Assembly (NCBI RefSeq): GCF_000027125.1
Contig: NC_017626.1
Direction: 5' to 3' (one strand)
DNA: 64,000 nt
Source: Escherichia coli 042
GTDB lineage: Bacteria; Pseudomonadota; Gammaproteobacteria; Enterobacterales; Enterobacteriaceae
Shown here: positions 2,687 to 22,609 of the stretch, piece by piece
Layout of the letters: every line of letters begins with the position of its first letter
How positions within the stretch are numbered: position 1 is the stretch's first letter
Notes under the pieces: model-generated
Databases searched by the model: none
The model's input: the letters and a program-made list of their open reading frames with translations, nothing else
Told to the model about the DNA's origin: nothing
Program-made: the position numbers and the translations under genes

Positions 2687-3169
2687 ATGACGAAGAAAAA
2701 AGCACATAAACCTGGTTCAGCGACCATCGCGCTTAACAAGCGCGCCCGTCACGAATACTTTATCGAAGAAGAGTTCGAAGCGGGACTTGCCCTGCAAGGC
2801 TGGGAGGTTAAATCCCTGCGCGCAGGAAAAGCCAATATCAGCGACAGCTACGTCCTTCTGCGTGACGGAGAGGCATTTCTGTTTGGCGCTAACATCACGC
2901 CAATGGCCGTGGCCTCCACGCATGTGGTGTGCGATCCTACCCGTACCCGCAAGTTACTTCTCAACCAGCGCGAACTGGACTCATTGTACGGTCGCGTCAA
3001 TCGAGAAGGCTATACCGTAGTGGCGCTCTCCCTGTACTGGAAAAATGCCTGGTGCAAAGTGAAAATCGGCGTCGCCAAAGGTAAAAAACAGCACGATAAA
3101 CGTTCAGATATCAAAGAACGCGAATGGCAGGTGGATAAAGCACGTATCATGAAAAACGCCCACCGTTAA
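2687..3169 (+). CDS. smpB: SsrA-binding protein SmpB
   Basis: 160 aa, [28 protein letters not shown]... is the SmpB N-terminus; immediately upstream of tmRNA. Confidence 0.95.
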
Positions 3170-3383
3170 ACCTGCACTCCAATTATTGACCAATTCCTCA
3201 CCGCGCCTCCCTCTCCGGCGGCGCGAATGAACATCTTATTGGCTATCACATCCGACGAAAATGTTGCCATCCCATTGCTTAATCGAATAAAAATCAGGCT
3301 ACATGGTCGCTAAATCTTTAACGATAACGCCATTGAGGCTGGTCATGGCGCTCATAAATCTGGTATACTTACCGTTACACATT

Positions 3384-3746
3384 GGGGCTGATTCTGGATT
3401 CGACGGGATTTGCGAAACCCAAGGTGCATGCCGAGGGGCGGTTGGCCTCGTAAAAAGCCGCAAAAAATAGTCGCAAACGACGAAAACTACGCTTTAGCAG
3501 CTTAATAACCTGCTTAGAGCCCTCTCTCCCTAGCCTCCGCTCTTAGGACGGGGATCAAGAGAGGTCAAACCCAAAAGAGATCGCGTGGAAGCCCTGCCTG
3601 GGGTTGAAGCGTTAAAACTTAATCAGGCTAGTTTGTTAGTGGCGTGTCCGTCCGCAGCTGGCAAGCGAATGTAAAGACTGACTAAGCATGTAGTACCGAG
3701 GACGTAGGAATTTCGGACGCGGGTTCAACTCCCGCCAGCTCCACCA
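3384..3746 (+). ncRNA. ssrA: tmRNA (SsrA), 363 nt
   Basis: Starts GGGGCTGATTCTGGATTCGACGGG, contains tag reading frame gcaaacgacgaaaactacgctttagcagcttaa (ANDENYALAA*), ends GGGTTCAACTCCCGCCAGCTCCACCA. Confidence 0.97.
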
Positions 3747-3781
3747 CTTTTTAGTAAAACAAAGTCTACTAAAGACTATCA

Positions 3782-3813
3782 AGGCCGCACCTCACAAGGG
3801 TTGCGGCCTTTTT
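3782..3813 (+). terminator. Stem-loop plus T-run downstream of ssrA
   Basis: AGGCCGCA ... TGCGGCCT inverted repeat followed by TTTTC, 36 nt after tmRNA 3' end. Confidence 0.55.
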
Positions 3814-3912
3814 CATGTCTAGCAGAGTCTACTGAGAATTGCTAGAAGCTACGCATTATGGGACCCTTATATGGACCCACCGACTGGGTCCAATAATTTG
3901 AGGGTCCAATAC

Positions 3913-5142
3913 ATGGCAAGGCAGACTAAAAAACTCACAGACACTGAAATCAAAAACACCAAACCAGCAGACAAAGAGATCAATCTCTTCGATGGTGATG
4001 GGCTACTGCTACGAATCGCTCCTTCATCAAAAGGAGGGAAGAAGAACTGGTATCTCAGATATCCAGTGCCAGTAACCAAGAAGCGCACCAAGATGAGCTT
4101 GGGTACCTACCCTCACCTCTCATTAGCAAAGGCAAGAGCTTTGCGTGATGAATACCTGTCGTTACTTGCTAATGGTGTTGACCCTCAAGTCCACATCACT
4201 GAAAAAACTAATGCTCTGAAAGATGCCACGGAGCACACGCTACAAGCAGTTTCTCGAAAGTGGTTAGATGAGAAAATTAAGACTTCTGGCATCTCTCTAG
4301 ACCATGCAGAAGATATCTGGCGCAGCCTCGAAAAAAACATCTTTTCAACTCTGGGTGATGTTCCTATCAAAGAGATCCGCCCCAAAATGCTCAAGCAGCA
4401 TCTTGACCCAATTGAGCAGCGCGGTGTTCTCGAAACTCTACGTCGTATAATTTCCAGACTGAATGAAATCTTTCGCTATGCTGCCACGGAAGAGCTTATA
4501 GAGTTCAATCCTGCCGACAATCTCGCTCAGCGTTTCAGTAAACCTAAGAAGCAAAACATGCCTGCCCTTCCACCTGATGAGCTACCACGCTTCATGGTTG
4601 CTTTATCTAACGCATCTATACGGTTAGAAACCCGTATGCTGATCGAGTGGCAATTGTTGACGTGGGTAAGGCCCGGTGAAGCCGTTCGGGCAAGATGGTG
4701 TGATATTGATGAAGAGAGCAGATTTTGGAATATCCCTTCAGAATTCATGAAAATGAAACGCCCACATAAGGTTCCATTGAGTAAAGAAGCTCTCCGCATT
4801 TTAGAAAACATGCGCCCTATCAGTGGTCATAGAGAATGGGTTTTCCCCAGCATCAAAGCTCCCCTCAGTCATATGCATGAACAAACAGCTAATGCAGCCA
4901 TAATTCGTATGGGGTTTGGCGGAGAGCTTGTTGCTCATGGTATGAGATCTATTGCAAGGACAGCAGCCGAAGAATACGGTAAGTTTAGAACGGAGGTGCT
5001 TGAATCCGCTCTGGCTCATACTAAAAAAGATGAAATAATAGCCGCGTATAACCGTTCGGAATACCTAGTTGAAAGAGAAGAACTAATGAAATGGTGGGGG
5101 GATTATGTCAGCAGCAAAAAATATAAGATGATGGCAGCATAA
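3913..5142 (+). CDS. Tyrosine recombinase / integrase, P4 family
   Basis: MARQTKKLTDTEIKNTKPADKEINLFDGDGL... with C-terminal R..HGMRS..A....Y catalytic-region pattern; similar to but diverged from K-12 IntA; ATG at 3913 preferred over ORF-track start 3871. Confidence 0.88.
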   Translation: MARQTKKLTDTEIKNTKPADKEINLFDGDGLLLRIAPSSKGGKKNWYLRYPVPVTKKRTKMSLGTYPHLSLAKARALRDEYLSLLANGVDPQVHITEKTNALKDATEHTLQAVSRKWLDEKIKTSGISLDHAEDIWRSLEKNIFSTLGDVPIKEIRPKMLKQHLDPIEQRGVLETLRRIISRLNEIFRYAATEELIEFNPADNLAQRFSKPKKQNMPALPPDELPRFMVALSNASIRLETRMLIEWQLLTWVRPGEAVRARWCDIDEESRFWNIPSEFMKMKRPHKVPLSKEALRILENMRPISGHREWVFPSIKAPLSHMHEQTANAAIIRMGFGGELVAHGMRSIARTAAEEYGKFRTEVLESALAHTKKDEIIAAYNRSEYLVEREELMKWWGDYVSSKKYKMMAA

Positions 5143-5163
5143 ATAAATTTTAATCATATAATT

Positions 5164-6501
5164 ATGACACAGCATAAGGTGAAAGTAATGAGAATATCAA
5201 AAACATTAGAATCATTATTTACATTTCTAAAGGAAAAAGAGCAGAAAGGTCAACTATTCAATAAAGAGGCTATACTCACAGCCACCGGTTGGAAAGCGGC
5301 TACATTTAGAACTTATTGGGTTAAAGGGCAGTTATCTGACTTTATTAGCGCAATTGATGAAGATACATTTGAGGCATCAAACTGTCAAAACATCTCAGTT
5401 ATAGAGTTTTCGAAACTATTATCTCAAAGTAAGCATAGAAGAGGGTTAGGTCATAATTGCCAGTCGAAACTAGCAAAAGCATTATTAACAAAATCTAGAG
5501 ATAATATGATGCTTGCTCTTGAATTATATAATAGACCTTCAATTGAGAATAGAATGGATGCATTTGTAATGTGTTTTTGCACTTCATGGGAACAATTATT
5601 AAAAGCTATTTTGATTGAAAAAAATGGTGAAGAGTCAATTTTCAAAAAAGAAAACAAGCGAGGATTCAGAGAAACTATTTCACTAAGAGACTGCTTAGAA
5701 AAAACATTCCCATCGAATTCAAAGGTAAGAAATAATATAGAACAAATAACAGTTTTCAGAGATCAGGCTGTACACCTTTTAATGCCAGAAATACAAGGGA
5801 TAGCCTCAAGGATATTTCAGTCTGGCGTTCTTAATTATTCATCATATTTTGAAAAATTCACAGAGGTTTCTTTTCTCAATAACAATAGCACAGGAATGAT
5901 ATCCTTGGTAGGTGAGTTTAGAACACCGCCAATATCCGTACTGAAATCCATTTATGGAGAAGTAGCGACTGATATATTAGACTTAGCAACAACTCTTCAG
6001 CAAGAAGTTGATGATAAAAATGACATAGAGTATGCAATTCCCTTAAATGTAAAACTTGTTTTTGCGACATCAGATGATGATGGGAATACCATAACCTTAG
6101 CTAAAGCTGATGAGGGAATCGAGGGGCTTAAGAAGGCTCTAATTATAGAAAAACCAGTAGATAGATCAAGAACACATCCGTATTTGCAGAAGGATGCCAT
6201 TGAGCATATAAATGAAAAAATCTACGAACTTTATAGTATAGAAAAGATAGAAAAGCATTTAGTATTCAAAGATAACAAAACAGGAAAGAAAGCGATAAAT
6301 AAAAATTGCTTTGATGCTGTTATTTGTAAGAACGGATGGAAAAAATCAAATAATAAATATCATCACAAAAACAATAATCCAGAATACCACTATTATTCAC
6401 CAGCATTAGTAGATGAATTTGTCAAGAAAGCTATGACAAACGAAGATTATCTAATGAATACAAAAAAATGGTATAATGCCAGAAGAAGTAAGAAAAAGTG
6501 A
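5164..6501 (+). CDS. Hypothetical protein, about 437-445 aa, low GC, Lys-rich C-terminus
   Basis: Long ORF; alternative ATG at 5188 has an AAGGTG Shine-Dalgarno; no family assignable by eye. Confidence 0.6.
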   Translation: MTQHKVKVMRISKTLESLFTFLKEKEQKGQLFNKEAILTATGWKAATFRTYWVKGQLSDFISAIDEDTFEASNCQNISVIEFSKLLSQSKHRRGLGHNCQSKLAKALLTKSRDNMMLALELYNRPSIENRMDAFVMCFCTSWEQLLKAILIEKNGEESIFKKENKRGFRETISLRDCLEKTFPSNSKVRNNIEQITVFRDQAVHLLMPEIQGIASRIFQSGVLNYSSYFEKFTEVSFLNNNSTGMISLVGEFRTPPISVLKSIYGEVATDILDLATTLQQEVDDKNDIEYAIPLNVKLVFATSDDDGNTITLAKADEGIEGLKKALIIEKPVDRSRTHPYLQKDAIEHINEKIYELYSIEKIEKHLVFKDNKTGKKAINKNCFDAVICKNGWKKSNNKYHHKNNNPEYHYYSPALVDEFVKKAMTNEDYLMNTKKWYNARRSKKK

Positions 6502-6835
6502 TGAATAGTGAAACTATGAACAGTACATATCATTTATAAGTGTGCTGTTCATAGTAATTCACAGAACATACTGATTAATTTTATTTTTTCCTAAAACCGG
6601 AAGAAAATAAACCAGTGAAATATTCTTTACATTTAAAATTCGGAGGCCACGGAAATATAAAATCTAATATTAATTACTAATTATATTTATAAAAGGTCTG
6701 CCTCTGACCATTTGAAATGAAAAACAAATCCCAATAATATAGAAAAAAATATCTGATATAATAATTTTGTAGATAAAATAGGCCTATATAAAAACATATC
6801 TTTAATTCCCCCCTTAAAAAGAGGGGCAAATACTG

Positions 6836-7801
6836 TCATTCCTCAAATCTATATAACGCGCCATCAAGATATTCTTCAACAGTATCTATACCGATCCATC
6901 TTCGGTTCAAACTCTCAGCTACAGCACCGGCAGTCATCGACCCACCAAATGGATCAAGAACTAAATCCCCTTCATCTGTAAGCATTTTAATGAAGAATTC
7001 AGGAAGCTGCATAGGGAAACGCGCAGGATGAATTTTGATACCATTAGCTTTACATTTTTTTGTATAAACGTCATTAGCTGCATTATTACCCATTTTCAAT
7101 ACATCAGACGGTGTTTCATCATCAATAAAATTAGGTGGGATAGACCCTCCATTATGGGTTTTATCAAAAGATTCATTAATATTATGTCCTGATGGTCGAA
7201 CAGTAGTTTTAACACCTTTTGCTGCAAGCCGAAGCATGTCCTTGCTATAAGGACGAAGCACTTTTTTATTACTTGCTTTTGGGTGTGGCCCTTTACTAAA
7301 CCAGAAAACATACTCTACAGAATCCTTCACTCGGACTCGTTTGACTGTAACCCATTGAGCAGGTACAGGCATCTTTGCAGGGTTGTACCAGAAAGTCTCT
7401 TGCGCTAGTCTGAATCCTACTTCCTCAACTAAAGCAATAACTAACTTAAAATGATAGATAGATCTAGTTGGCTCACCGGGATTCCAAGAGCCCCCGATGT
7501 TCAAAACGAAACTGCCATCTTCTGTCAGTATCCTTTTGATTTCTTTCGCAAAATCAACAAACCACTCAACGTAGTCCTTCTGACAGACATTACCATATTC
7601 TTTCTTAAAATGAAGTGCATATGGTGGAGATGTGAAGACTAAGTTAACCGAGTTATCAGGTATTGACTTCATCACGTCTAACGAATCGGCGTGGAAGATC
7701 GAACCCAAGTTAGATTCGTAAAACGGTTCAAACCCGTTGACTAACTTTGTAGTTGAATTTTTCTCTTTTGATGAAAAGTCAAGCGTTTTTTGAATAGTCA
7801 C
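6836..7801 (-). CDS. DNA methyltransferase, beta-class amino-methyltransferase (N4-cytosine or N6-adenine)
   Basis: Motif IV TSPPY near the N-terminus and motif [11 protein letters not shown] near the C-terminus (order IV then I); no ATG upstream of the conserved N-terminal region, so start is GTG at 7801 or GTG at 7882. Confidence 0.8.
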
Positions 7802-7869
7802 AACAATAAATCTCGAAATGGGCAATCGGATTGCATTGTTGCGTACATAACACAAGGGATCAAGTACAG

Positions 7870-8559
7870 ATGAACCAACCACAGGACTTTACAGCTCTTC
7901 TTAACAGCTTAACTCCTCAAGAGCAGCAAATGCTTTTCACGCAACTTCGCGGAAGAATTCCCATCCATCCTCTTGAACAGCAATGGAATATTACAGCAGA
8001 ATTCATTTTAGAAGCCATTGCGCGAAGCCAAGATATCACGAAACGAGGCGTAAGAGGAATCATTGCAGAGCTATGTTTCGATACATATATCATAGGTGCA
8101 ATGAAACATAAGGGCTGGATACAACATCAACTTTTTGGAGATTTACCCTATGATGCACTGATTTCTCATCCTCATGTCGGGGAAATAAAAATACAAACTA
8201 AAAACCAACGACTTGAACGTGGAGTCCCAAAATACGCAAATGGACCAATGATAAAATTCAATCCATATGTCGAAGGTTGGTATGTTTGCGAAACACAGAA
8301 AACGAGGACAGGAAAAAATGCGGAAGGGTTAGATACGAGGCCATATAGATTTGGTGAGTTTGATATACTATCAGTTTGCCTCCATCCGTCATCGGGTGAT
8401 TGGACACGATTCATGTTTTGCCCTGCATATACACTAATGCCAAGAGCGACAAATCCTGAACTAATTGCTGTTTTACAACCAGTACCACCTACACGACAAG
8501 GAAATTGGACTGATAATCTTGAGGAAGCGATTGAATGGCATTTGAACCGTAATCGTTAA
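7870..8559 (+). CDS. Putative restriction endonuclease partner of the methyltransferase (PD-ExK-like motif)
   Basis: Divergent from the methyltransferase with a short shared control region; ATG at 7870 has an AAGGG ribosome-binding site; motif [18 protein letters not shown] fits D...ExK. Confidence 0.45.
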
Positions 8560-8597
8560 AAACGGGGAATATAGCCAACTATATCTATAATATTAAA

Positions 8598-8725
8598 AGG
8601 GCCTTACGGCCCTTTCGTTTTCCCTTAAAGGGAACTCTCCCTTGGAGAGAATACATATCCCCACACTTGGGGCAAATCAATCAGCCCATTGGGCTGTACA
8701 CCACTCCCCATACATGGGGCAATCA
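8598..8725. repeat. Array of six consecutive GC-rich mini-hairpins (5-6 bp stems, 3-4 nt loops)
   Basis: GGGCC-TTAC-GGCCC, CCC-TTAAA-GGG, CTCTCC-CTT-GGAGAG, CCCCA-CACT-TGGGG, CAGCCC-ATT-GGGCTG, CCCCA-TACA-TGGGG; two units share the context TGGGGCAA(A)TCA. Confidence 0.6.
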
Positions 8726-9204
8726 GACACTTCCTGAAGTGAATATCCTCAAGGAACCATTATTAAATATAATATTAAATGTAGATTGTCAAATATATTT
8801 GAATATTTATTAAAAATATATTCACAACGACCAATCACAAATAAATTTAATCCCCCATAAATAATTAGAGGATCAAACCAAGTTCCTGATGCCTTATCTC
8901 TTTTATATCTCATGGTATATGTCTGAATGTCAAAACATGGTATATAACAACCAGAGAGCATTTTTATAGGCTGCTATTATCTGACACTCCTTTCCCCGTT
9001 GCTGTTTCCTATAAAAGAGCCAGAGATAGATAATAGCATTTTTATTTCTATCTTATTCACTCTGGATCGCTCGGCTCACAGCTTATTGGGGCGCTCGGAA
9101 CATCAACATAGGATAAAATACCTACCATTTAAATAAATCATAAGATTATACATGTCAAGATAAAGCATGAAATTATATATAGGTTTATCACGGCTATAGA
9201 TACT

Positions 9205-9516
9205 TCACTCCTGCCTCCCAATCATATCCCCAAGAAACCTTTTTCCTCGTAATTTTAATCTTGCTTTATCTTCAATGCTAATATTCGATAATTGTAATAT
9301 CAGTCCTAATATTAACTCCTTATCTACCTCTTCTACTTTACAGCCCATAGCTTTAGCTACCTCAGCACCAAGGATGATCTTCAAGCGTGTCTCTGCGCTC
9401 TTGGATAGAGATTTTTCTTTACTCTTAAGGCGATTCAGACGCATTTGAGCTGATGCTATTTTTTGCTTAATGGTTTTTTCTGATCTCGGCTTTCTACCTT
9501 TATCATCCGTATTCAT
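9205..9516 (-). CDS. mobC: MobC-like mobilisation accessory protein
   Basis: 103 aa basic protein; RL..L....E.R.K.ILGA.VAK pattern resembles RSF1010 MobC; divergent from the relaxase across the oriT-like region. Confidence 0.6.
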   Translation of the reverse strand: MNTDDKGRKPRSEKTIKQKIASAQMRLNRLKSKEKSLSKSAETRLKIILGAEVAKAMGCKVEEVDKELILGLILQLSNISIEDKARLKLRGKRFLGDMIGRQE

Positions 9517-9632
9517 AATTACTTTTCCTTCTAGTTGTCAAAAACATGGAATACAATTAAAAAAGGAAAAGGTCAAACCATAGGCAGAAGGTTGAATACT
9601 TTTTATTCCAGATTAAATAACGCAGCGCGAGA

Positions 9633-9696
9633 TGATTGTTCAAAACAATCACATTGCTGGAACAGGGTTCATCCCTGTTAATGATAGGATTCATCT
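9633..9696. promoter_or_regulatory. Copy A of a roughly 64-bp repeat: palindrome TGATTGTT-CAA-AACAATCA plus hairpin ACAGGG-TTCAT-CCCTGT
   Basis: Near-identical copy at 24961-25023; palindrome alone again at 25101-25121; lies upstream of the mobC-like gene. Confidence 0.55.
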
Positions 9697-10149
9697 CAAA
9701 AAATGATGTTTTGGTTTTAAAAATATGATATTAGTAAGCTCAAAATAAAAACATGCAACACATACGAATGCAGTCACTAACATTAATTACCTGATACTCT
9801 CCGCGTTACTTATTTTATTGAATCAATGAAAACAATTTTACCTCTTGCTTTTTGACTCTGATTTCTGGTCTTAACCTGTGAATTGTGCAACACATAAAAG
9901 TATTTATAATTTTCACTATTTATTTTAAATTCTGCTTTCCCGCCTTACGGCGAGAGACTAATTTAACTACTTTTGCCCTTACGGGCGTTTTCTAAACACC
10001 AGAATCCAATATTATTATCCTACCTCAACCGTTTATCCGATTCCTACCTTTTTAATTTCACAGTCTGTAAAACTAGAGCTATTATTTAACTATAGAAAAA
10101 CATAAAACATTGTCGTTATTTTTAGCTCCTTTAGGAGATATAAAAATAA

Positions 10150-10260
10150 AGCAATGCCCACCTATACACTGCTACGCAGTGTGTGGGGTCTACCGACGGT
10201 TGCCTGCCGCAGGCTAACACCGTTTCCTTCGGAAACAAGGTCAACGTCAACACCAGAGTT
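10150..10260. other. Candidate origin of transfer (oriT), MOBQ/RSF1010-like
   Basis: Between divergent mobC-like and mobA-like genes; inverted repeats ACACTG-CTACG-CAGTGT (10157-10188) and GTTTCC-TTC-GGAAAC (10222-10236), the latter resembling the RSF1010 oriT inverted repeat. Confidence 0.5.
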
Positions 10261-10351
10261 TTTCTTACGAAAAACTAAAACCAGCTGAGTCGTATTGGAG
10301 ATTTATATTTTGGTTTGATATTTAAATTTATTTTGAGGTTGTTTTTATTAT

Positions 10352-11860
10352 ATGGCTATTTTTCATCTGGATTTTAAAATTGTGAAACGTTCTGAAGGCA
10401 GATCTTCCGTTGCGAAAGCTGCCTATCATGCTCGTACACGTATAACAGATGAAAGAACAGGTGATACCTATGATTATAGTCGCCGTACCGATTTATACGG
10501 ACATTTCATATTAGCACCAATTAATGCTCCAGAACATATCGTGAAAGACTCTACAGCATTGTGGAATGAAGTTGAAAGAGTTGAGCGCCAGAGCAATGGT
10601 CAAACATCCCGTTATTTCGATGTTGCCATACCTGCCGAGTTAAACAATGACGACAAGAAAAGACTTGTCCTTGAGTATTGTCAGAAAAATTTCGTTGATA
10701 AAGGCATGATTGCCGATATCGCTTTCCACGATCTTGATAGCGATAATCCTCATGCTCACGTTATGTTGACATTAAAAACCATAGGCCCTGAAGGTTTTGG
10801 TAAAAAAGAAAGAAGCTGGAACGACAGAAAAATGTCTGTTATATGGCGTGAATCATGGGCATCTATGGCTAACAGCTACCTTGCTGCCGCTGGCTCGTCA
10901 GAACGTATTGACCATCGTTCTCTTCAGGCCCAGCATGAAGAGGCATTAGAAAAAGCGGCGGTAGCTTTAGATAATGAAGAAAAAGCGCTATGGCTTGCTA
11001 AAGCCGCTGAAACAAACCGTCCTCCAATGAAGCGTATCCATAGTGCCAAATGGCGTAGTAAAGCAGCACAAGAGCAAAGAGCAGCAGAACAGGCTGTTCG
11101 TGATGCTGCCAAGCAGGAAGCGGTTGAAGTCTACAAGACTTTCAGCGAACTTGATCTTGAAATCGTCGTTGATGTCAGAAGCTTCACCGTGGCTGCTCTT
11201 GCTGAACCAGAAGAGATTGTATTACCAGAAACGCGCTCCGGCTCTTCTTCTCATGAAGCACAAAGTCCTGTATTGGTAGCGCCTATTCCTCATACTCATG
11301 TGCGTGGAGTTAAATCTTACCGCGATAAAGAAAAAGTGAGTAAAGTTGTCATTAATAATATATCAGAACCAAATGTTGCTGATGCTGACATAAACACTCT
11401 TTGGAAAACATCTCCATCTAAAACCAAAAATATGGCATCCAAAAGTACCGCTGAAAGTGTTAAAAGGAAACAGGCTAATCCGCGTCAGGATAATATCTTT
11501 AAACGCTTTACAACGCTTTTGATCGGTTTCTTCAAAGAGAAATTTATATGGGCTAAGAAGAAACCTGATCCTACCGAGATTGAACATGACAGGCATGTAG
11601 CAGAAAATTACGTCTTTGATGAAGTGCTGGGTGTCTATGTATCACGCGCTGACCATGAACAACGAGCCAGATTCAACGGTGATGATAAAGAGTTCTCTGG
11701 TTACAAGCCAACACCTGATGAGATTAAGCGTTTTCCAAGCCGTCTAGCTAATACAGCACAAACTGATAGAGAGCTCGACTACATGCCTTCGCTCGTGGCT
11801 GATAAGAAATCGTTAGCACCTAAATTGAAACCAAATGCTCCCTATAAAAATAGATTATAA
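10352..11860 (+). CDS. mobA: Relaxase, MobA/MobL (MOBQ) family
   Basis: N-terminus MAIFHLDFKIVKRSEGRSSVAKAAYHARTR and NPHAHVMLT (HxH) motif parallel RSF1010 MobA (MAIYHL..., NPHCHLMIS). Confidence 0.85.
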   Translation: MAIFHLDFKIVKRSEGRSSVAKAAYHARTRITDERTGDTYDYSRRTDLYGHFILAPINAPEHIVKDSTALWNEVERVERQSNGQTSRYFDVAIPAELNNDDKKRLVLEYCQKNFVDKGMIADIAFHDLDSDNPHAHVMLTLKTIGPEGFGKKERSWNDRKMSVIWRESWASMANSYLAAAGSSERIDHRSLQAQHEEALEKAAVALDNEEKALWLAKAAETNRPPMKRIHSAKWRSKAAQEQRAAEQAVRDAAKQEAVEVYKTFSELDLEIVVDVRSFTVAALAEPEEIVLPETRSGSSSHEAQSPVLVAPIPHTHVRGVKSYRDKEKVSKVVINNISEPNVADADINTLWKTSPSKTKNMASKSTAESVKRKQANPRQDNIFKRFTTLLIGFFKEKFIWAKKKPDPTEIEHDRHVAENYVFDEVLGVYVSRADHEQRARFNGDDKEFSGYKPTPDEIKRFPSRLANTAQTDRELDYMPSLVADKKSLAPKLKPNAPYKNRL

Positions 11861-17097: not shown

Positions 17098-17505
17098 ATG
17101 TCTGATGCTTTAAAGATCATCAACAATATTCGTACTCTCCGTGCTCAGGCTCGTGAACTGACACTCGAAACCTTGGAAGAGATGTTAGAAAAACTCACTA
17201 TCGTTGTAGAAGAACGTCGTGAAGAAGAGGCCTCATTTCTAAAACAGCAGGAAGAGAAACAGGCCAAGCTGGAAGCATTCCGTCAGAAGTTGTTGGAAGA
17301 TGGCATAGACCCGGCAGAGTTGCTTTCAACTGTTAGCCCATCTTCTTCCAAGACAGGAGCGAAACGCGCCCCACGTCCAGCTAAGTATAAATATGTTGAT
17401 ACCGATGGTTCGGAAAAGACGTGGACAGGTCAGGGCCGAACTCCTCGTGCTATCGCTGCTGCGCTCGAAGCCGGTAAGACACTGGAAGATTTCGAGATCA
17501 AGTAA
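17098..17505 (+). CDS. H-NS family nucleoid-associated protein, island-encoded paralogue
   Basis: 135 aa; ...[23 protein letters not shown]...[25 protein letters not shown] parallels the StpA encoded at 50350-50754 in this window. Confidence 0.85.
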
Positions 17506-18324: not shown

Positions 18325-19578
18325 TTATTCACTTGCCTGAGTCGCTCTTGTCGCATTTGTTTTTAAATTATTCAGCATTTGCTTATCAACCGGTTGCAGT
18401 TGTTGTCCTAACAGAGCCGCAAGCAAAATATTTGTGTCTTCTGTTCTTTCGATTTGAAGCATTTGTAATCTTAAATCAAGTGCCTGCATTCTTGCCTGCT
18501 CATGCGCAGTTTCTTTTTCATCAGCACTACTGATTTTTACCTGCCAAGCGTCAGCACCTGTTGTATCTGCATAGCGTGAATAGATCTCATATCTTAACAT
18601 TTCCCACTCTGAAGGATTATCCGGGAATGTTGTGCCGGGAAATAAGGTCGCATACTTGTTTTTTACGGAAGCATCTGACCAAGCAAGGTTTGCTCCCTGC
18701 GTAGAGCCCAATGTGGATCCTATTTTGGCCCCTCTGGAGTTCACTGATATATTACTTGCTTTTTTCATTGCCAGTACGGAATCAATGGCGTTTGTTCCAG
18801 CAGTGCTTCTGGAGACAAAGCTCGAAAAGGCCGATAAATATTCTCGACCTTCATTTGTGTCTTCTAATCCTTTGTTCTTCAATGGTTCAACGGGCAAGTT
18901 CCCTATAAGATTTCTTTTTGCCGCTTCAGCAACCTCAATCTGCTCAACAGAATAGGACTGATTCGAAACCTTATTAGACAATGCATCGGATTTAGATAAT
19001 GGTGGTGTAATCAGGCTTGATGCCGACTTATCTTTATCAGGATACTGACCTATAGTATTACACCCACCTCTGTTATATTTCACATCATCTTCGGAGCAAA
19101 CATTTATTGATACTCTGCCCATGATGTTTTTCTTGGCCTCATTTATTCTGGTATTTGCTTGTGTAAACATCTTAACGCTGTTTTCAGATAAAGCCTCTTT
19201 AGCTGAGCTTGTATTCGATCCTGCTGCACCACGACCACCTGCGCTCGTGACTTCTTCACAGGCGTTGGCATCAGGTATTCTGTTTAAGATATTTTTCATG
19301 CGCTGTTCTTGGATTGCCTGACTGGCATTACTGACAACCGCATTCTTCTGATTCTCACTGGCTGTTATGGTTGCTTGTGCCAGCTTGTCGTTCATTGAGA
19401 CTAATGTTTCAATTATTCCATTGCCCATAGATTGGGGTGAAGCCCCCATAAGATACGGTGTCAAAACCTCTTCTGTGACGGGCCAGACAGCGAAAGCTGT
19501 ATTTGTATATAATACAGAAAAACACAAAGCTGAAACCACTGTTATTCTCTTTACTTTAAATTTATTATTACTCATCAC
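18325..19578 (-). CDS. Secreted/periplasmic protein (417 aa), unknown function
   Basis: N-terminal signal peptide (…LYTNTAFAVWP); third gene of a three-gene minus-strand cluster. Confidence 0.6.
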   Translation of the reverse strand: MMSNNKFKVKRITVVSALCFSVLYTNTAFAVWPVTEEVLTPYLMGASPQSMGNGIIETLVSMNDKLAQATITASENQKNAVVSNASQAIQEQRMKNILNRIPDANACEEVTSAGGRGAAGSNTSSAKEALSENSVKMFTQANTRINEAKKNIMGRVSINVCSEDDVKYNRGGCNTIGQYPDKDKSASSLITPPLSKSDALSNKVSNQSYSVEQIEVAEAAKRNLIGNLPVEPLKNKGLEDTNEGREYLSAFSSFVSRSTAGTNAIDSVLAMKKASNISVNSRGAKIGSTLGSTQGANLAWSDASVKNKYATLFPGTTFPDNPSEWEMLRYEIYSRYADTTGADAWQVKISSADEKETAHEQARMQALDLRLQMLQIERTEDTNILLAALLGQQLQPVDKQMLNNLKTNATRATQASE

Positions 19579-19948: not shown

Positions 19949-22609
19949 TCACATTCCATCATTACCTTCTTTTGATGATGAACTACCACCGGAAGATCCA
20001 CTACCGCTCCCTTTCTCTGGAGCCTTAAAGCTTTCAATTGGTGAAGCTTGGGCCTGTAAACTTACAGGCAGCAACGGTCTGTTATGTTCACCAAACGATA
20101 CCGCTCTGTTAGCAGCCTTTTGAGCTACATTCATATAACCTGCTGCGCCTGCTGTATCACCAATAGCATCTGCTGCCTCAGCTGCATGGTAAGCCGAGTT
20201 AGCACTTTCAAGAGACTGATATTCATCCTGCTGATCAAGTGGGCCAGCATTACTCATATGAGTTCTGAATGCAGATCCCGTATCATTGGCTTTATTAGCC
20301 GCCAGTGCTTTCCCCTGTTGAGCCTGTTGCTGTTGTTGAAGCTCACGTTGCTGTTCACGGTCTTTGTTAATTTGCGCATTCCTGATCTGATTACCCATCG
20401 CATTTGAGGTATGGGAAACCTGATCCAACACGGTTTTGGTAAACATAGCACCTTCAACACCTTTTGATGCCGACTGTGCGTAACCCGACATGCTCTGACC
20501 ACCATGAACACCAAGCCACTTCATAATTTCATCAGGGATGATGTGAATCAGTGAAAGTGATTTCTTCACTACCGTGAACATCATTGCAATATAAACAGCA
20601 ATGAGAGCCAGTGACTCGATGATACCTATCCCGGCATTGGCTGACATCATGCCAAAAGCGCCGGAGAATGTTTCGTTGACGATCCCACCAAGGATAGGGA
20701 GCATCGTATAGGCTGCTATTAATCCTGTTATCATTAGCGCTGGTCGCATGGTTAACGATAAAACCAGACCATAACCAGCGCCACCACGACCCACTACGCC
20801 ATCACCATCTGGATGTAAATGTGTTATTACCCATAATGGTGCTGCGACCATTGCTTCAAGGCACAGGATCATCCAGCCTACGCAAACACCAAACCACATG
20901 ACGTAAGGCAGCATAGGAATGACGACGGCTAAAGTATCGCCAGCTATCCATAAAGGGATAACCAGTGGCATAACAATCCCCATAGCGCCAAATGCACCCG
21001 ATACCCAGCTTGCAGTCGCTGATGTCCATGCGCCAAGACCTGCCCCAACAACAGCAGAACTCCCTAATAACGTCCAGCCAGCGGCACTGATCGTATCCCC
21101 AAGCCCTTTAACAGCTAATAACGGGTTTATTGCCTGTAAATTGGCAGCGGTTGTGTCCGTCGAGAACGAGACGATTTTCCCTTGTTTTCTTCCATTGATA
21201 ACGCTGGAACTGAGAAAACCCGCCATTGCACCAGAAATGCTCTTATTGGCTTCACTTTGAAGAGAAGAAACTATTTTTCCAGCATCATCTGTTTTAGGGC
21301 CTACACCACTTTTACCACTGGTATTGGCTTCCGTTCGGTTTTGCGCATCAATACCATTCGCATATCTTGAAGCTGTCGTTGATTTCGCCATATCTTGAGC
21401 CACTTTTGCCATAATCGCGTTCAGGCTGTTATCGAATATATCTCCGTATTCCATTGTCGCTTGCCCGGCTACAGGAAGATTATGAGCTGCTCCATTAATC
21501 GCATCCTGCACACGGATCAGTTTCATACTCCATGCGCCAGCCATAAACCATCCGTCTTTCTGGACATTCTCTTTGAAATCATCCCACTGGTCGCCAGTGG
21601 AGAAAACTGTTCGTACTGCAGTATCAATAATGGATACATATGAGGCCGTTGCGCTGTTTATTCCGGTCTGAATATCAATATTATTATCGGCCACATACTG
21701 TTCAGCCAGCGTTTTCATACTATTATCAAGGCCGATAAATGCGGCATTGTGTGCCTCAATAACATCTGAAATATTCGTCTTTATATCCTGTGGCATATAA
21801 GCCATATACATGCCGCCAGCAGCAATGGTAGCCTGAGCTTTAGCCTGTTCGTCATAAGAAGCTTTGGCCTTCGGGTCTGTAAGCGTGATGCTTCCACATG
21901 CAGCCTTGGATACCAGTAAATTTTTATTCATATCATTACCGGCATTGCTGGCTCCATAACTGTATGTGTATAAATAGGCACCTTTCTCCGGTGTCATTTC
22001 AAACGCAGGCGTGACGTGCGGGAAGGGATCGGCTGCTGCTGATTTCTTCCATAATTCTCCCGCCTTTAACATACAGACGTTATTGATAAAGGCGGTTTTC
22101 GCTATGCGATCAAGCTCCTGATAAGATGCAGATGTGGTAATAACAGCCCCATCTGAGGGGTTGGATGCATAGGTATTCCAGACGGTATCTGCCAGACCGA
22201 CTCCCTGATTAATCATCCACAGCACCATAACCTGAGCGGCACAGAAACCACCTGCTGCCGGGAGTATCATTGCCGTGCCTAATGCAGTTCTTACGGGCAA
22301 CCACATGGAAGACCATTTCTTACCCAGCATTTCTCCGTCATGTGCCGTTGACATGGTTCCGGCAATCAGTGTGTAGGCAGCTAAAATGCCACCAACCAGT
22401 AAAACAGCGCTGTTAAGGATTGTCATTGTGCTGGCTAAGGGACTTTCCGCTAAATTGTCCGGGAATAAGATATCCAGAAACCACAGCTTTGATTTGTCTG
22501 TCTCCGGGACGGTAAATAAATCTGCGGCATAAGCTGACTGAGTTAATAACAGGCAAGCTAATATTACTAATAATATCGATACTTCTTTTTTCTTTATATT
22601 TATCATCAT
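19949..22609 (-). CDS. Large polytopic membrane protein (886 aa) with signal peptide and Gln-rich / Gly-Ser-rich C-terminus; possibly mating-pore related
   Basis: Signal peptide ...LLTQSAYAADL; many hydrophobic segments; C-terminal ELQQQQQAQQ and GSGSGSSGGSSSS low-complexity runs. Confidence 0.6.
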   Translation of the reverse strand: MMINIKKKEVSILLVILACLLLTQSAYAADLFTVPETDKSKLWFLDILFPDNLAESPLASTMTILNSAVLLVGGILAAYTLIAGTMSTAHDGEMLGKKWSSMWLPVRTALGTAMILPAAGGFCAAQVMVLWMINQGVGLADTVWNTYASNPSDGAVITTSASYQELDRIAKTAFINNVCMLKAGELWKKSAAADPFPHVTPAFEMTPEKGAYLYTYSYGASNAGNDMNKNLLVSKAACGSITLTDPKAKASYDEQAKAQATIAAGGMYMAYMPQDIKTNISDVIEAHNAAFIGLDNSMKTLAEQYVADNNIDIQTGINSATASYVSIIDTAVRTVFSTGDQWDDFKENVQKDGWFMAGAWSMKLIRVQDAINGAAHNLPVAGQATMEYGDIFDNSLNAIMAKVAQDMAKSTTASRYANGIDAQNRTEANTSGKSGVGPKTDDAGKIVSSLQSEANKSISGAMAGFLSSSVINGRKQGKIVSFSTDTTAANLQAINPLLAVKGLGDTISAAGWTLLGSSAVVGAGLGAWTSATASWVSGAFGAMGIVMPLVIPLWIAGDTLAVVIPMLPYVMWFGVCVGWMILCLEAMVAAPLWVITHLHPDGDGVVGRGGAGYGLVLSLTMRPALMITGLIAAYTMLPILGGIVNETFSGAFGMMSANAGIGIIESLALIAVYIAMMFTVVKKSLSLIHIIPDEIMKWLGVHGGQSMSGYAQSASKGVEGAMFTKTVLDQVSHTSNAMGNQIRNAQINKDREQQRELQQQQQAQQGKALAANKANDTGSAFRTHMSNAGPLDQQDEYQSLESANSAYHAAEAADAIGDTAGAAGYMNVAQKAANRAVSFGEHNRPLLPVSLQAQASPIESFKAPEKGSGSGSSGGSSSSKEGNDGM

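What the first reader, a model, noticed from the sequence alone, without database searches (positions are those of the whole stretch)
5164..6501. Orphan 445-aa low-GC gene between integrase and R-M pair, possible defence gene
The first cargo position after a P4-family integrase is a recurrent slot for antiphage genes. This protein has no obvious catalytic signature by eye but contains a conserved-looking block (LALELYNRPSIENRMDAFVMCFCTSWEQLLKAIL) and a highly basic C-terminus. It sits in an unusually AT-rich segment next to the R-M pair.
Basis: inference. Interest (0 to 1): 0.5.

Follow-up and report, generated by a model that had tools for sequence, protein, structure and literature searches.

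The report
Single-gene HEPN nuclease defence candidate (DUF3644)
The gene is real but not an orphan: it encodes a three-domain protein of the widespread DUF3644/EC042_2821 family, built around a predicted HEPN ribonuclease, which is already catalogued as an untested phage-defence candidate (PADLOC PDC-S19) and travels alone on mobile elements.

Summary
The ORF at 5164-6501 exists, is AT-rich (GC 0.31-0.34) and lies between a P4-type integrase and a methyltransferase plus a 229-aa ORF in an island inserted at ssrA. The likely start is ATG 5188, giving 437 aa. It is not an orphan: Pfam DUF3644 (E 1.6e-46), the EC042_2821 C-terminal domain, PADLOC PDC-S19 (E 2.6e-68) and phrog_9605 all match, and there are about 1,240 clusters of relatives.

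Relatives occur as single Vibrio integron cassettes, in a P2-like prophage, next to integrases, in Gram-positive phages and satellites, and alone among housekeeping genes. An E. coli variant of this island lacks the R-M pair.

The best reading is a self-contained abortive-infection or anti-mobile-element RNase. It is a new member of a known but experimentally untested family. Interest is modest.

The parts
5188..6501 (+). Coding sequence of the DUF3644/EC042_2821-family protein (437 aa; the ORF is open from 5164)
   Evidence: ORF. The start is supported by the Shine-Dalgarno sequence, PGAP WP_001222856.1 and the homologue N-termini. dN/dS is 0.068.
5176..5181 (+). Shine-Dalgarno-like AAGGTG, 6 nt before ATG 5188
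   Evidence: Read directly from the sequence.
5200..5376 (+). N-terminal winged helix-turn-helix domain (residues 13-71 in 445-aa numbering)
5419..5466 (+). Highly conserved linker LSQSKHRRGLGHNCQS between the wHTH and HEPN domains
   Evidence: S87, Q88, S89, K90, L95, G96 and H97 are invariant in 28 full-length relatives. No regular secondary structure is predicted here.
5467..6015 (+). HEPN domain (Pfam DUF3644; residues about 102-284)
5512..5613 (+).
   Evidence: Translation, invariant columns and helices 102-123 and 130-154 in the model.
5758..5775 (+). Rx4H motif RDQAVH (R199...H204), the predicted RNase active site
   Evidence: Translation. R and H are invariant in 50 relatives of 23-57% identity. 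The motif aligns in register with the HRNRVVH motif of HEC-08; that paper reports that mutating H128 of HEC-08's Rx4-6H motif abolished defence.
6016..6159 (+). Low-confidence segment (residues about 285-332) with two predicted strands; it holds the family's best candidate acidic positions
   Evidence: pLDDT is below 50-60 in both models. The column that is D in 34 of 50 relatives is N308 here.
6160..6447 (+). C-terminal EC042_2821 domain (Pfam PF18740, labelled REase-like; residues 333-428)
6460..6498 (+). Basic C-terminal tail (KKWYNARRSKKK)
   Evidence: Translation. The tail is K/R-rich in most relatives.
6513..6556 (+). Strong hairpin just after the stop codon, at the 3' edge of the conserved gene module
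   Evidence: The 106-nt stretch 6495-6600 folds at -28.7 kcal/mol with z -4.41; the 16-bp hairpin stem is its main element. Homology with the R-M-less E. coli island ends at 6555. The pattern scan did not call it a terminator.
6556..8821 (.). Separate 2.27-kb R-M cassette (methyltransferase 6836-7801 on the - strand; 229-aa ORF 7870-8559 on the + strand); not part of the gene's module
   Evidence: It is replaced by 143 bp in E. coli E500002. MTase_II, 1.5e-102. Some homologues of the 229-aa ORF carry PF11645.

Best explanation
The gene encodes a self-contained, single-protein immune effector of the EC042_2821/DUF3644 HEPN family (PADLOC candidate PDC-S19). It is carried as cargo at the integrase end of an ssrA-integrated mobilisable island.

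Proposed mechanism:
- The central HEPN domain is a metal-independent ribonuclease. Its active site (R199/H204, with N191) is assembled when two HEPN domains pair.
- In uninfected cells the enzyme is held inactive in cis, since no antitoxin gene accompanies it.
- The N-terminal winged helix, the C-terminal EC042_2821 domain, or both, bind a nucleic acid or protein cue from an invading element (most likely a phage, possibly a plasmid) and release the RNase.
- The RNase then cuts tRNA, rRNA or mRNA and stops growth of the infected cell. This is abortive infection or growth arrest.

What is shown here: family membership, the HEPN fold, the invariant Rx4H motif, single-gene mobility, purifying selection and independence from the R-M pair.

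What is inferred: RNase activity, dimerisation, autoinhibition, the trigger, the substrate and the defence phenotype.
For: Family:
- Pfam DUF3644 at 1.6e-46, plus the EC042_2821 domain.
- PADLOC PDC-S19 at 2.6e-68, covering 3-323 of 328 model positions.
- phrog_9605 at 2e-89.
- The same wHTH+HEPN+C-terminal-domain architecture was described by Anantharaman et al. 2013 (PMC3710099).

Fold and site:
- N123, F134, K147, N191, R199, H204 and Q219 are invariant in 50 relatives.

Single-gene autonomy:
- Exactly one gene lies between two VCR attC sites in V. cholerae.
- It is the first cassette after the integron integrase in V. parahaemolyticus.
- It stands alone among housekeeping genes in Picosynechococcus and Methylophaga.
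- The 278-aa genes that follow it in Pluralibacter and V. parahaemolyticus are unrelated to each other, and no other neighbour recurs across the contexts examined.

Defence-type contexts:
- A P2-like prophage gap after HTH and WYL genes.
- Directly after a P4-type integrase.
- After a type III R-M in a related Yersinia island.
- Lysogeny or moron slots of Listeria phage and Streptococcus satellites.

Precedents from the literature:
- HEC-08 defence needs the Rx4-6H histidine.
- HepS is a solo HEPN Abi protein that is inactive until triggered and then cuts tRNA (PMC13043305).

Selection: dN/dS 0.068.
Against: - No experiment exists for this family that I could find. PDC systems are explicitly untested.
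- No promoter-like site lies upstream beyond chance, and the gap to the integrase gene is only 45 nt, so expression is unknown.
- The gene diverges about as much as the island backbone between E. coli and Yersinia (74% against 75-78%). It could therefore be a long-term resident with an element-specific role rather than swappable cargo.
- It is rare in E. coli: 10 of 5,426 complete genomes.
- HEPN domains are not always catalytic.
- The link to the validated HEC-08 holds only at superfamily level: hhalign E 0.19, and current Pfam gives HEC-08 no DUF3644 hit.
Confidence: 0.62

Rival explanations
1. Anti-plasmid or anti-MGE immunity rather than anti-phage. The protein would act like the Ishtar HEPN proteins, causing loss of incoming conjugative plasmids with little cell death, and so protect the resident island from competitors.
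For: Ishtar proteins have an N-terminal HEPN domain (DUF4145 or DUF3644) plus an uncharacterised C-terminal alpha/beta domain. They occur in Vibrio integrons and P4 satellites and remove RP4 (bioRxiv 10.64898/2026.07.06.735840). Our family shares the integron and integrase-adjacent contexts. The host element is itself mobilisable, with a MobQ relaxase.
Against: None of six motifs characteristic of our family (ELYNRPS, YNRP, FQSG, FQAG, AVHL, WEQLLKA) occurs anywhere in the Ishtar homologue table; only the loose 4-mer ATHL appears once, in an unrelated 241-aa Sulfurimonas protein. BLASTP and hhalign against a 218-aa Ishtar-table protein show no similarity. The Ishtar-table proteins I saw are 175-241 aa and lack a wHTH.
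Confidence: 0.15
2. A DNA-targeting restriction-like enzyme. The C-terminal EC042_2821 domain would be an active PD-(D/E)xK nuclease, guided by the winged helix to foreign (for example modified) DNA, with the HEPN domain structural or regulatory.
For: Pfam and Anantharaman 2013 label the C-terminal domain REase-like. A wHTH and a basic tail suit DNA binding. The gene neighbours R-M genes here and in Yersinia.
Confidence: 0.08
3. An element-maintenance (addiction) toxin or an RNA-processing or regulatory factor of the mobile element. It would benefit the island's stability or transfer, not host immunity.
For: The gene sits next to the integrase, possibly co-transcribed across a 45-nt gap with no separate promoter call. 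It co-diverges with the island backbone between E. coli and Yersinia. It lies in lysogeny modules of satellites. HEPN toxins of toxin-antitoxin systems are its closest structural matches.
Against: No antitoxin or conserved partner gene is present. The gene occurs as an isolated integron cassette and alone between housekeeping genes, with no element to maintain. The family was nominated from copies embedded in BREX, DISARM or type I R-M loci.
Confidence: 0.1
4. A PrrC-like guard of the adjacent R-M system. The RNase would fire when a phage anti-restriction protein disables the neighbouring methyltransferase/endonuclease.
For: The EC042_2821 family is reported in R-M operons. It lies next to a type II R-M here and a type III R-M in Yersinia. 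PDC models derive from genes embedded in R-M, BREX or DISARM loci.
Against: The same island in E. coli E500002 keeps the gene (96.7% identical) with the R-M cassette absent. Seven of the nine contexts examined have no adjacent R-M. The two R-M partners are of different types.
Confidence: 0.05

Closest known systems
EC042_2821 family of HEPN proteins (Anantharaman, Makarova, Burroughs, Koonin & Aravind 2013, PMC3710099) = Pfam DUF3644 (PF12358) + EC042_2821 domain (PF18740)
   Same: The architecture is the same: wHTH, then HEPN with Rx4-6H, then the C-terminal EC042_2821 domain. Occurrence beside R-M genes is also shared. Both Pfam models match.
   Different: This subfamily has substitutions at the acidic positions most relatives keep in the C-terminal domain. 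My fold search does not support the REase label. The family has only ever been described computationally.
PADLOC PDC-S19 (single-gene phage defence candidate, Payne et al. 2024 preprint)
   Same: The HMM match is end to end, E 2.6e-68. The gene behaves as a single-gene unit.
   Different: The PDC-S19 models are about 330 aa and start at the HEPN domain, whereas this protein carries an extra 100-aa wHTH plus linker. PDCs are untested by definition.
HEC-08 (E. coli ECOR52, WP_001313577.1), a validated anti-phage HEPN protein
   Same: Its authors describe its HEPN domain as DUF3644. Its Rx4-6H motif aligns in register with RDQAVH, and its histidine (H128) is required for defence.
   Different: Its C-terminus is made of zinc ribbons, not the EC042_2821 domain, and it has no wHTH. 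The profile comparison is not significant (E 0.19), and current Pfam gives HEC-08 no DUF3644 hit.
HepS (Gifsy-1 prophage, Salmonella), a solo HEPN abortive-infection anticodon nuclease
   Same: It is a single HEPN protein with an Rx4H motif and no partner or antitoxin, encoded on a mobile element. It gives a plausible working model of resting-state inactivity and trigger-dependent activation.
   Different: HepS is under 250 aa with no extra domains. My PDB sequence searches found no related chain at all. Whether HepS's structure is in that PDB copy was not checked.
Ishtar (ist1/ist2) anti-plasmid HEPN proteins of Acinetobacter baumannii
   Same: They have an N-terminal HEPN domain (one of the two is reported as DUF3644) plus an uncharacterised C-terminal alpha/beta domain. 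They are monogenic and occur in Vibrio integrons and P4 satellites.
   Different: The Ishtar-table proteins I saw are 175-241 aa. There is no sequence similarity to the one Ishtar-table protein I compared, and our family's characteristic motifs are absent from the homologue table.
PrrC / RloC (R-M-linked HEPN anticodon nucleases)
   Same: They are HEPN RNases found next to or inside R-M loci, acting as a second line of defence.
   Different: They need an N-terminal ABC ATPase and, for PrrC, a type I R-M partner. Here there is no ATPase domain and the gene persists without the R-M pair.

Membership tests
HEPN superfamily | Four-helix up-and-down bundle fold | tested here: met
HEPN superfamily | Conserved Rx4-6H motif at the start of the last core helix | tested here: met
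   R199-DQAV-H204. R and H are invariant in 50 relatives down to 23% identity.
HEPN superfamily | Ribonuclease activity | not testable with these tools
   This needs biochemistry.
EC042_2821 / DUF3644 family (Anantharaman 2013; Pfam PF12358 + PF18740) | Match to the DUF3644 HEPN model | tested here: met
   PF12358, E 1.6e-46, residues 107-281, model positions 2-182 of 183.
EC042_2821 / DUF3644 family (Anantharaman 2013; Pfam PF12358 + PF18740) | C-terminal EC042_2821 domain | tested here: met
   PF18740, E 3.4e-3 for the full protein and 3.8e-4 for the isolated domain. 36 of 45 aligned relatives hit at E<=1e-3, best 6.5e-28.
EC042_2821 / DUF3644 family (Anantharaman 2013; Pfam PF12358 + PF18740) | N-terminal wHTH in some members; occurrence with R-M genes | tested here: met
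   wHTH topology at residues 13-71 with pLDDT about 90. A methyltransferase plus ORF lie adjacent here and a type III R-M in Yersinia. The association is not obligatory.
PD-(D/E)xK restriction-endonuclease fold (claimed for the C-terminal domain) | alpha-beta-beta-beta-alpha-beta core detectable by structure comparison | tested here: not met
PD-(D/E)xK restriction-endonuclease fold (claimed for the C-terminal domain) | Conserved catalytic D ... (D/E)xK residues | tested here: not met
   Only Y411 and S412 are near-invariant. Acidic columns held by 26-34 of 50 relatives are N308, C382 and N390 in this protein, although D333 is kept (44 of 50).
PADLOC PDC-S19 | Match to the PDC-S19 HMMs | tested here: met
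   PDLC04952, E 2.6e-68, covering 3-323 of 328; all nine PDC-S19 models hit.
PADLOC PDC-S19 | Anti-phage activity | not testable with these tools
   The authors describe PDCs as '145 untested phage defence candidates'. A full-text search for PDC-S19 found no paper.
HEC-08 | Significant homology and C-terminal zinc-ribbon domains | tested here: not met
   hhalign E 0.19. No zinc-ribbon family matched at E<=10 in the Pfam scan. HEC-08 itself does not hit DUF3644 in current Pfam.
Ishtar (ist1/ist2) | Homology to Ishtar proteins or listing among their homologues | tested here: not met
   Six motifs characteristic of our family are absent from Table S3. WP_001222856 is absent. BLASTP and hhalign show no similarity. 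Only one Ishtar-table sequence was compared directly.
HEPN-MNT type II/VII toxin-antitoxin | Adjacent MNT nucleotidyltransferase antitoxin gene | tested here: not met
   Upstream is the integrase, and no ORF of 60 aa or more lies in 6502-6835. No MNT-like neighbour appeared in the Pfam labels of the contexts I examined.
PrrC/RloC anticodon nucleases | N-terminal ABC ATPase fused to HEPN | tested here: not met
   No ATPase domain in Pfam or NCBIfam. The N-terminus is a wHTH.

The most novel reading that the evidence does not exclude
The domain that Pfam calls 'REase-like' may not be a nuclease at all. It could be a new, confidently folding sensor or nucleic-acid-binding module with no solved counterpart, which gates the HEPN RNase. 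The same module appears in AFDB fused to Schlafen/AlbA_2-type proteins. It may therefore be a portable trigger domain shared by different RNA-targeting immune effectors. In this island it may guard the element against competing mobile DNA (plasmids as well as phages).
Probability: 0.2. Interest if true: 0.55.

Novelty: new member of a known kind. Interest (0 to 1): 0.33.

Why it matters
If the gene is active, it would turn a widespread, decade-old computational prediction (EC042_2821/DUF3644, PDC-S19; about 1,240 sequence clusters from enterobacteria to cyanobacteria and Gram-positive phages) into a validated single-protein immune system. It would also add a compact 1.3-kb HEPN effector with built-in sensing to the list that includes HepS and HEC-08.

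The E. coli allele is a convenient test case. It has a natural R-M-plus and R-M-minus pair of otherwise similar islands. There is also a clear pair of active-site residues to mutate.

The practical gain is modest, because the family is already in PADLOC and its likely chemistry is conventional.

Tried and rejected
- **Sequence search of the PDB.** Neither the protein nor the two family profiles found any related solved structure.
- **NCBIfam.** No family matched.
- **Profile search with the C-terminal alignment.** Intended to find other domain partners, it returned only 9 proteins and was uninformative.
- **Ishtar membership.** Rejected.
- **HEC-08 membership.** Rejected.
- **Conserved downstream partner.** The 278-aa genes after the Pluralibacter and V. 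parahaemolyticus copies are unrelated.
- **Promoter and terminator scan.** Nothing above chance upstream of the gene, and the post-stop hairpin was not called as a terminator.
- **Rfam.** Only the tmRNA was found in 3000-10500.
- **attR search.** No second copy of the ssrA 3' end occurs in the window, so the island's far end was not defined this way.
- **dN/dS against Pluralibacter and Yersinia.** Synonymous sites are saturated.
- **Distant blastn in E. coli genomes.** It found no further, more divergent copies.
Full report
**1. What is at the coordinates**

An uninterrupted ORF runs 5164..6501 on the + strand (445 aa). The setting is an E. coli chromosome:
- recN, bamE, yfjF/ratA and smpB come first, then ssrA (tmRNA, 3384-3746).
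- A P4-type integrase follows (3871-5142; NF007246, 1.5e-132), then the target ORF.
- A type II N4/N6 methyltransferase lies on the opposite strand (PADLOC MTase_II, 1.5e-102).
- A divergent 229-aa ORF comes next, then a TraD-like gene and a MobQ relaxase.

GC falls from about 0.46-0.52 to 0.31-0.34 over 5001-7000.

ATG 5188 is preceded by AAGGTG with a 6-nt spacer, whereas 5164 has no such site. PGAP annotates the 437-aa product WP_001222856.1 from that start. Every homologue begins at the equivalent methionine.

The gene is genuine. Against the 96.7%-identical allele of E. coli E500002 there are 34 synonymous and 10 non-synonymous differences, giving dN/dS 0.068.

**2. Not an orphan**

The protein matches several libraries:
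- Pfam DUF3644 (PF12358, E 1.6e-46, residues 107-281) and, weakly, the EC042_2821 domain (PF18740, residues 333-428).
- All nine PADLOC PDC-S19 models, best E 2.6e-68 across the whole 328-position model.
- phrog_9605 (E 2e-89).
- NCBIfam has nothing.

The word-index search gave 340 relatives. The top 120 are full-length proteins of 51-99% identity from Enterobacterales, Vibrio, Pseudoalteromonas, Shewanella, Methylophaga and cyanobacteria. An exhaustive profile search of 1.84 billion representatives gave 1,240 clusters at E<=1e-3 and 186 at E<=1e-30. These come in two forms: about 430 aa, and about 330 aa without the first 100 residues.

In E. coli the gene is rare: 10 of 5,426 complete genomes, all chromosomal.

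**3. Anatomy**

The AF2 model (mean pLDDT 76) has three parts.
- *Residues 13-71* form a winged helix-turn-helix (H-S-H-H-S-S) with pLDDT about 90.
- *Residues 333-445* fold confidently. pLDDT is 94-98 when this part is modelled alone from a 45-sequence alignment.
- Residues 285-332 are poorly predicted in both models.

Across 50 relatives of 23-57% identity, the invariant residues (445-aa numbering) are N123, F134, K147, N191, R199, H204 and Q219. R199-DQAV-H204 (5758-5775) is the canonical HEPN Rx4-6H ribonuclease motif.

A linker LSQSKHRRGLGHNC between the wHTH and HEPN domains is almost invariant among the long forms. I cannot explain this.

**4. The C-terminal domain**

It belongs to Pfam PF18740: 36 of 45 relatives hit at E<=1e-3, best 6.5e-28, and this protein at 3.8e-4. 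Pfam and Anantharaman et al. 2013 call it restriction-endonuclease-like. My tests do not support that label for this protein.
- Profile searches of PDB sequences find nothing.
- Only Y411 and S412 are near-invariant in this domain. The acidic positions kept by 26-34 of 50 relatives are N308, C382 and N390 here, although D333 is conserved.

Foldseek against AFDB50 finds the domain almost only behind DUF3644. A few hits are annotated Schlafen AlbA-2 or 'putative DNA-binding' proteins of about 280-350 aa. That hints at a portable accessory module.

I therefore treat the domain as a probable binding or sensing module of unknown fold class. The caveat is that the poorly modelled residues 285-332 could complete a degenerate nuclease core.

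**5. Genomic behaviour of the family**

The gene moves as a single unit.
- *V. cholerae:* it lies exactly between two VCR attC repeats, 1,446 bp apart, in a cassette array with toxin-antitoxin pairs and another HEPN (Ymh) cassette.
- *V. parahaemolyticus:* it is a cassette, and in one genome it is the first cassette after the integron integrase. putAbiC, PIN and SocA/ParE cassettes lie nearby.
- *Edwardsiella ictaluri:* it sits in a P2-like prophage between gpD and ogr, overlapping by 10 nt a WYL-domain gene that is preceded by an XRE-type HTH gene.
- *Pluralibacter gergoviae:* it directly follows a P4-type integrase in a different island, with no R-M genes.
- *Yersinia enterocolitica:* a related island (TraD, MobA/MobL relaxase, the same lipoprotein genes) carries integrase, then type III Mod, then Res, then this gene.
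- *Picosynechococcus and Methylophaga:* it is alone among housekeeping genes.
- *Gram-positive phages and satellites:* distant relatives (24-28% identity over the HEPN region) occur in 46 temperate phages and satellites. In satellite Javan375 the gene is in the lysogeny module next to the integrase gene. In a Listeria phage it lies between the lysis genes and the integrase gene.

No neighbouring gene is conserved. The 278-aa genes that follow it in Pluralibacter and V. parahaemolyticus are unrelated.

**6. Relation to the R-M pair**

E. coli E500002 has the same ssrA island (integrase, this gene, TraD, MobQ) but no R-M genes. Window 6556-8821 is replaced there by 143 bp. The R-M pair is thus an independent 2.27-kb cassette inserted 54 nt after the stop codon, just beyond a strong hairpin (6513-6556; the 6495-6600 stretch folds at -28.7 kcal/mol, z -4.4).

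The 229-aa ORF has no Pfam, PADLOC or NCBIfam hit. It has 1,361 homologues, a few of which carry PF11645. I recall this as a PD-(D/E)XK family, so an endonuclease partner is plausible.

The adjacency to R-M here (type II) and in Yersinia (type III) is best read as co-location in a defence-cargo slot, not functional dependence.

**7. What the literature says**

- Anantharaman et al. 2013 (PMC3710099) defined the EC042_2821 HEPN family. They describe it as fused to wHTH, REase and Zn-ribbon domains, occurring in R-M operons and overlapping DUF3644.
- Payne et al. (bioRxiv 10.1101/2024.01.29.577857) derived 145 'untested phage defence candidates' (PDC) from genes embedded in BREX, DISARM or type I R-M loci and placed them in PADLOC.
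- The same preprint validated HEC-08, described as DUF3644 plus zinc fingers, and showed that its Rx4-6H histidine is required. I retrieved HEC-08. It aligns with our family only weakly (hhalign E 0.19), though in the correct Rx4H register. Current Pfam does not assign it to DUF3644.
- A 2026 preprint (10.64898/2026.07.06.735840) describes the monogenic Ishtar anti-plasmid proteins. These have a HEPN domain (DUF4145 or DUF3644) plus an unknown C-terminal domain and occur in Vibrio integrons and P4 satellites. Our protein is absent from their homologue table and shows no similarity to the listed protein I compared.
- HepS (PMC13043305) is a solo HEPN abortive-infection protein. It is inactive at rest, is switched on by phage tail-tip protein and cleaves tRNA anticodon loops. 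It gives a working precedent for an antitoxin-less HEPN immune protein.
- Full-text searches for 'PDC-S19' and 'EC042_2821' found no experimental study.

**8. Most likely mechanism (confidence about 0.6)**

The protein is most likely a self-contained immune RNase.

*Shown:* the HEPN fold with an invariant Rx4H motif; single-gene mobility through integrons, prophages and islands; no partner or antitoxin; purifying selection; independence from the R-M pair.

*Inferred by analogy* with HepS, HEC-08, PrrC and HEPN biochemistry in general: the active site forms at a HEPN dimer interface. The enzyme is autoinhibited until the wHTH and/or C-terminal domain recognises a component of an invading element. 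RNA cleavage then arrests the infected cell.

*Rivals:*
- Anti-plasmid action like Ishtar (0.15). This overlaps with the main reading.
- An element-maintenance or regulatory role (0.10).
- A DNA-cutting enzyme acting through the C-terminal domain (0.08).
- A PrrC-like guard of the R-M system (0.05).

**9. Verdict**

The defence interpretation is reasonable and now rests on specific evidence, but it remains untested.

The gene is a new member of a known, computationally defined family. The only mildly novel points are two: the 'REase-like' label of the C-terminal domain does not hold up for this subfamily, and the domain may be a portable sensor module. Interest is 0.33.

Noticed in passing
window 5164-5190: The ORF's first ATG (5164) has no ribosome-binding site. 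The second ATG (5188) follows AAGGTG by 6 nt and matches PGAP and all homologues, so the protein is probably 437 aa, not 445.
   Followed up: yes
window 6556-8821 vs L018 10393-10535: The methyltransferase plus 229-aa ORF form a 2.27-kb cassette that is missing (replaced by 143 bp) in the otherwise collinear ssrA island of E. coli E500002. The two genes are divergent, and their longest ORFs overlap at 7831-7882.
   Followed up: partly
window 7870-8559: The 229-aa ORF paired with the methyltransferase has no Pfam, PADLOC or NCBIfam hit. It has 1,361 homologues, a few carrying PF11645, so it may be an unclassified type II restriction endonuclease.
   Followed up: partly
window 6513-6556: A 16-bp-stem hairpin begins 12 nt after the stop codon (the 6495-6600 stretch folds at -28.7 kcal/mol, z -4.4). 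It sits exactly at the end of homology with the R-M-less island. A U-run follows only about 30 nt later, so it is not a textbook terminator.
   Followed up: partly
window 5419-5466 (residues 86-101): The linker LSQSKHRRGLGHNC between the wHTH and HEPN domains is nearly invariant in the long-form relatives, yet has no predicted regular structure. It might be an autoinhibitory or recognition peptide.
   Followed up: no
window 9205-36886: The island continues with a TraD-like gene (9205-9516), a MobQ relaxase (10352-11860), an H-NS-family gene (about 17098-17505), a TraW-family gene (18325-19578), DotA/TraY (19949-22609), an Ag43/AIDA-type autotransporter of 1,567 aa (30281-34984) and YpjCB (35789-36886). 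No second copy of the ssrA 3' end (attR) was found in the window.
   Followed up: partly
L018 14732-19175 (E. coli E500002): The R-M-less variant of the island carries other defence-like cargo after mobQ: a reverse-transcriptase-family gene with an HTH gene, ISVsa5 and a TIR-domain protein.
   Followed up: no
L010 6992-9305 (Edwardsiella ictaluri P2-like prophage): The homologue overlaps by 10 nt a WYL-domain gene, which is preceded by an XRE-type HTH gene, between gpD and ogr. This could be a BrxR/CapW-style regulated unit in a prophage accessory slot.
   Followed up: no
L016 1640-9314 (Yersinia enterocolitica): A related island (TraD, MobA/MobL relaxase, the same lipoprotein genes; about 75-78% DNA identity) has a type III R-M between the integrase and the DUF3644 gene. 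The gene itself is 74% identical, so it has diverged in step with the backbone.
   Followed up: partly
AFDB50 hits to model ma005470aa7b2 (ranks 42, 43, 48, 49): The C-terminal EC042_2821-type fold also appears in proteins annotated Schlafen AlbA-2, putative DNA-binding or ATP-binding (about 280-350 aa). The module may therefore pair with a second kind of N-terminal domain.
   Followed up: no
HEC-08 sequence: HEC-08, published as a DUF3644 protein, gets no DUF3644 hit in the current Pfam-A scan (best: HepT-like_2, E 0.33). Literature statements linking HEC-08 to DUF3644 may rest on an older model or on profile-profile methods.
   Followed up: yes
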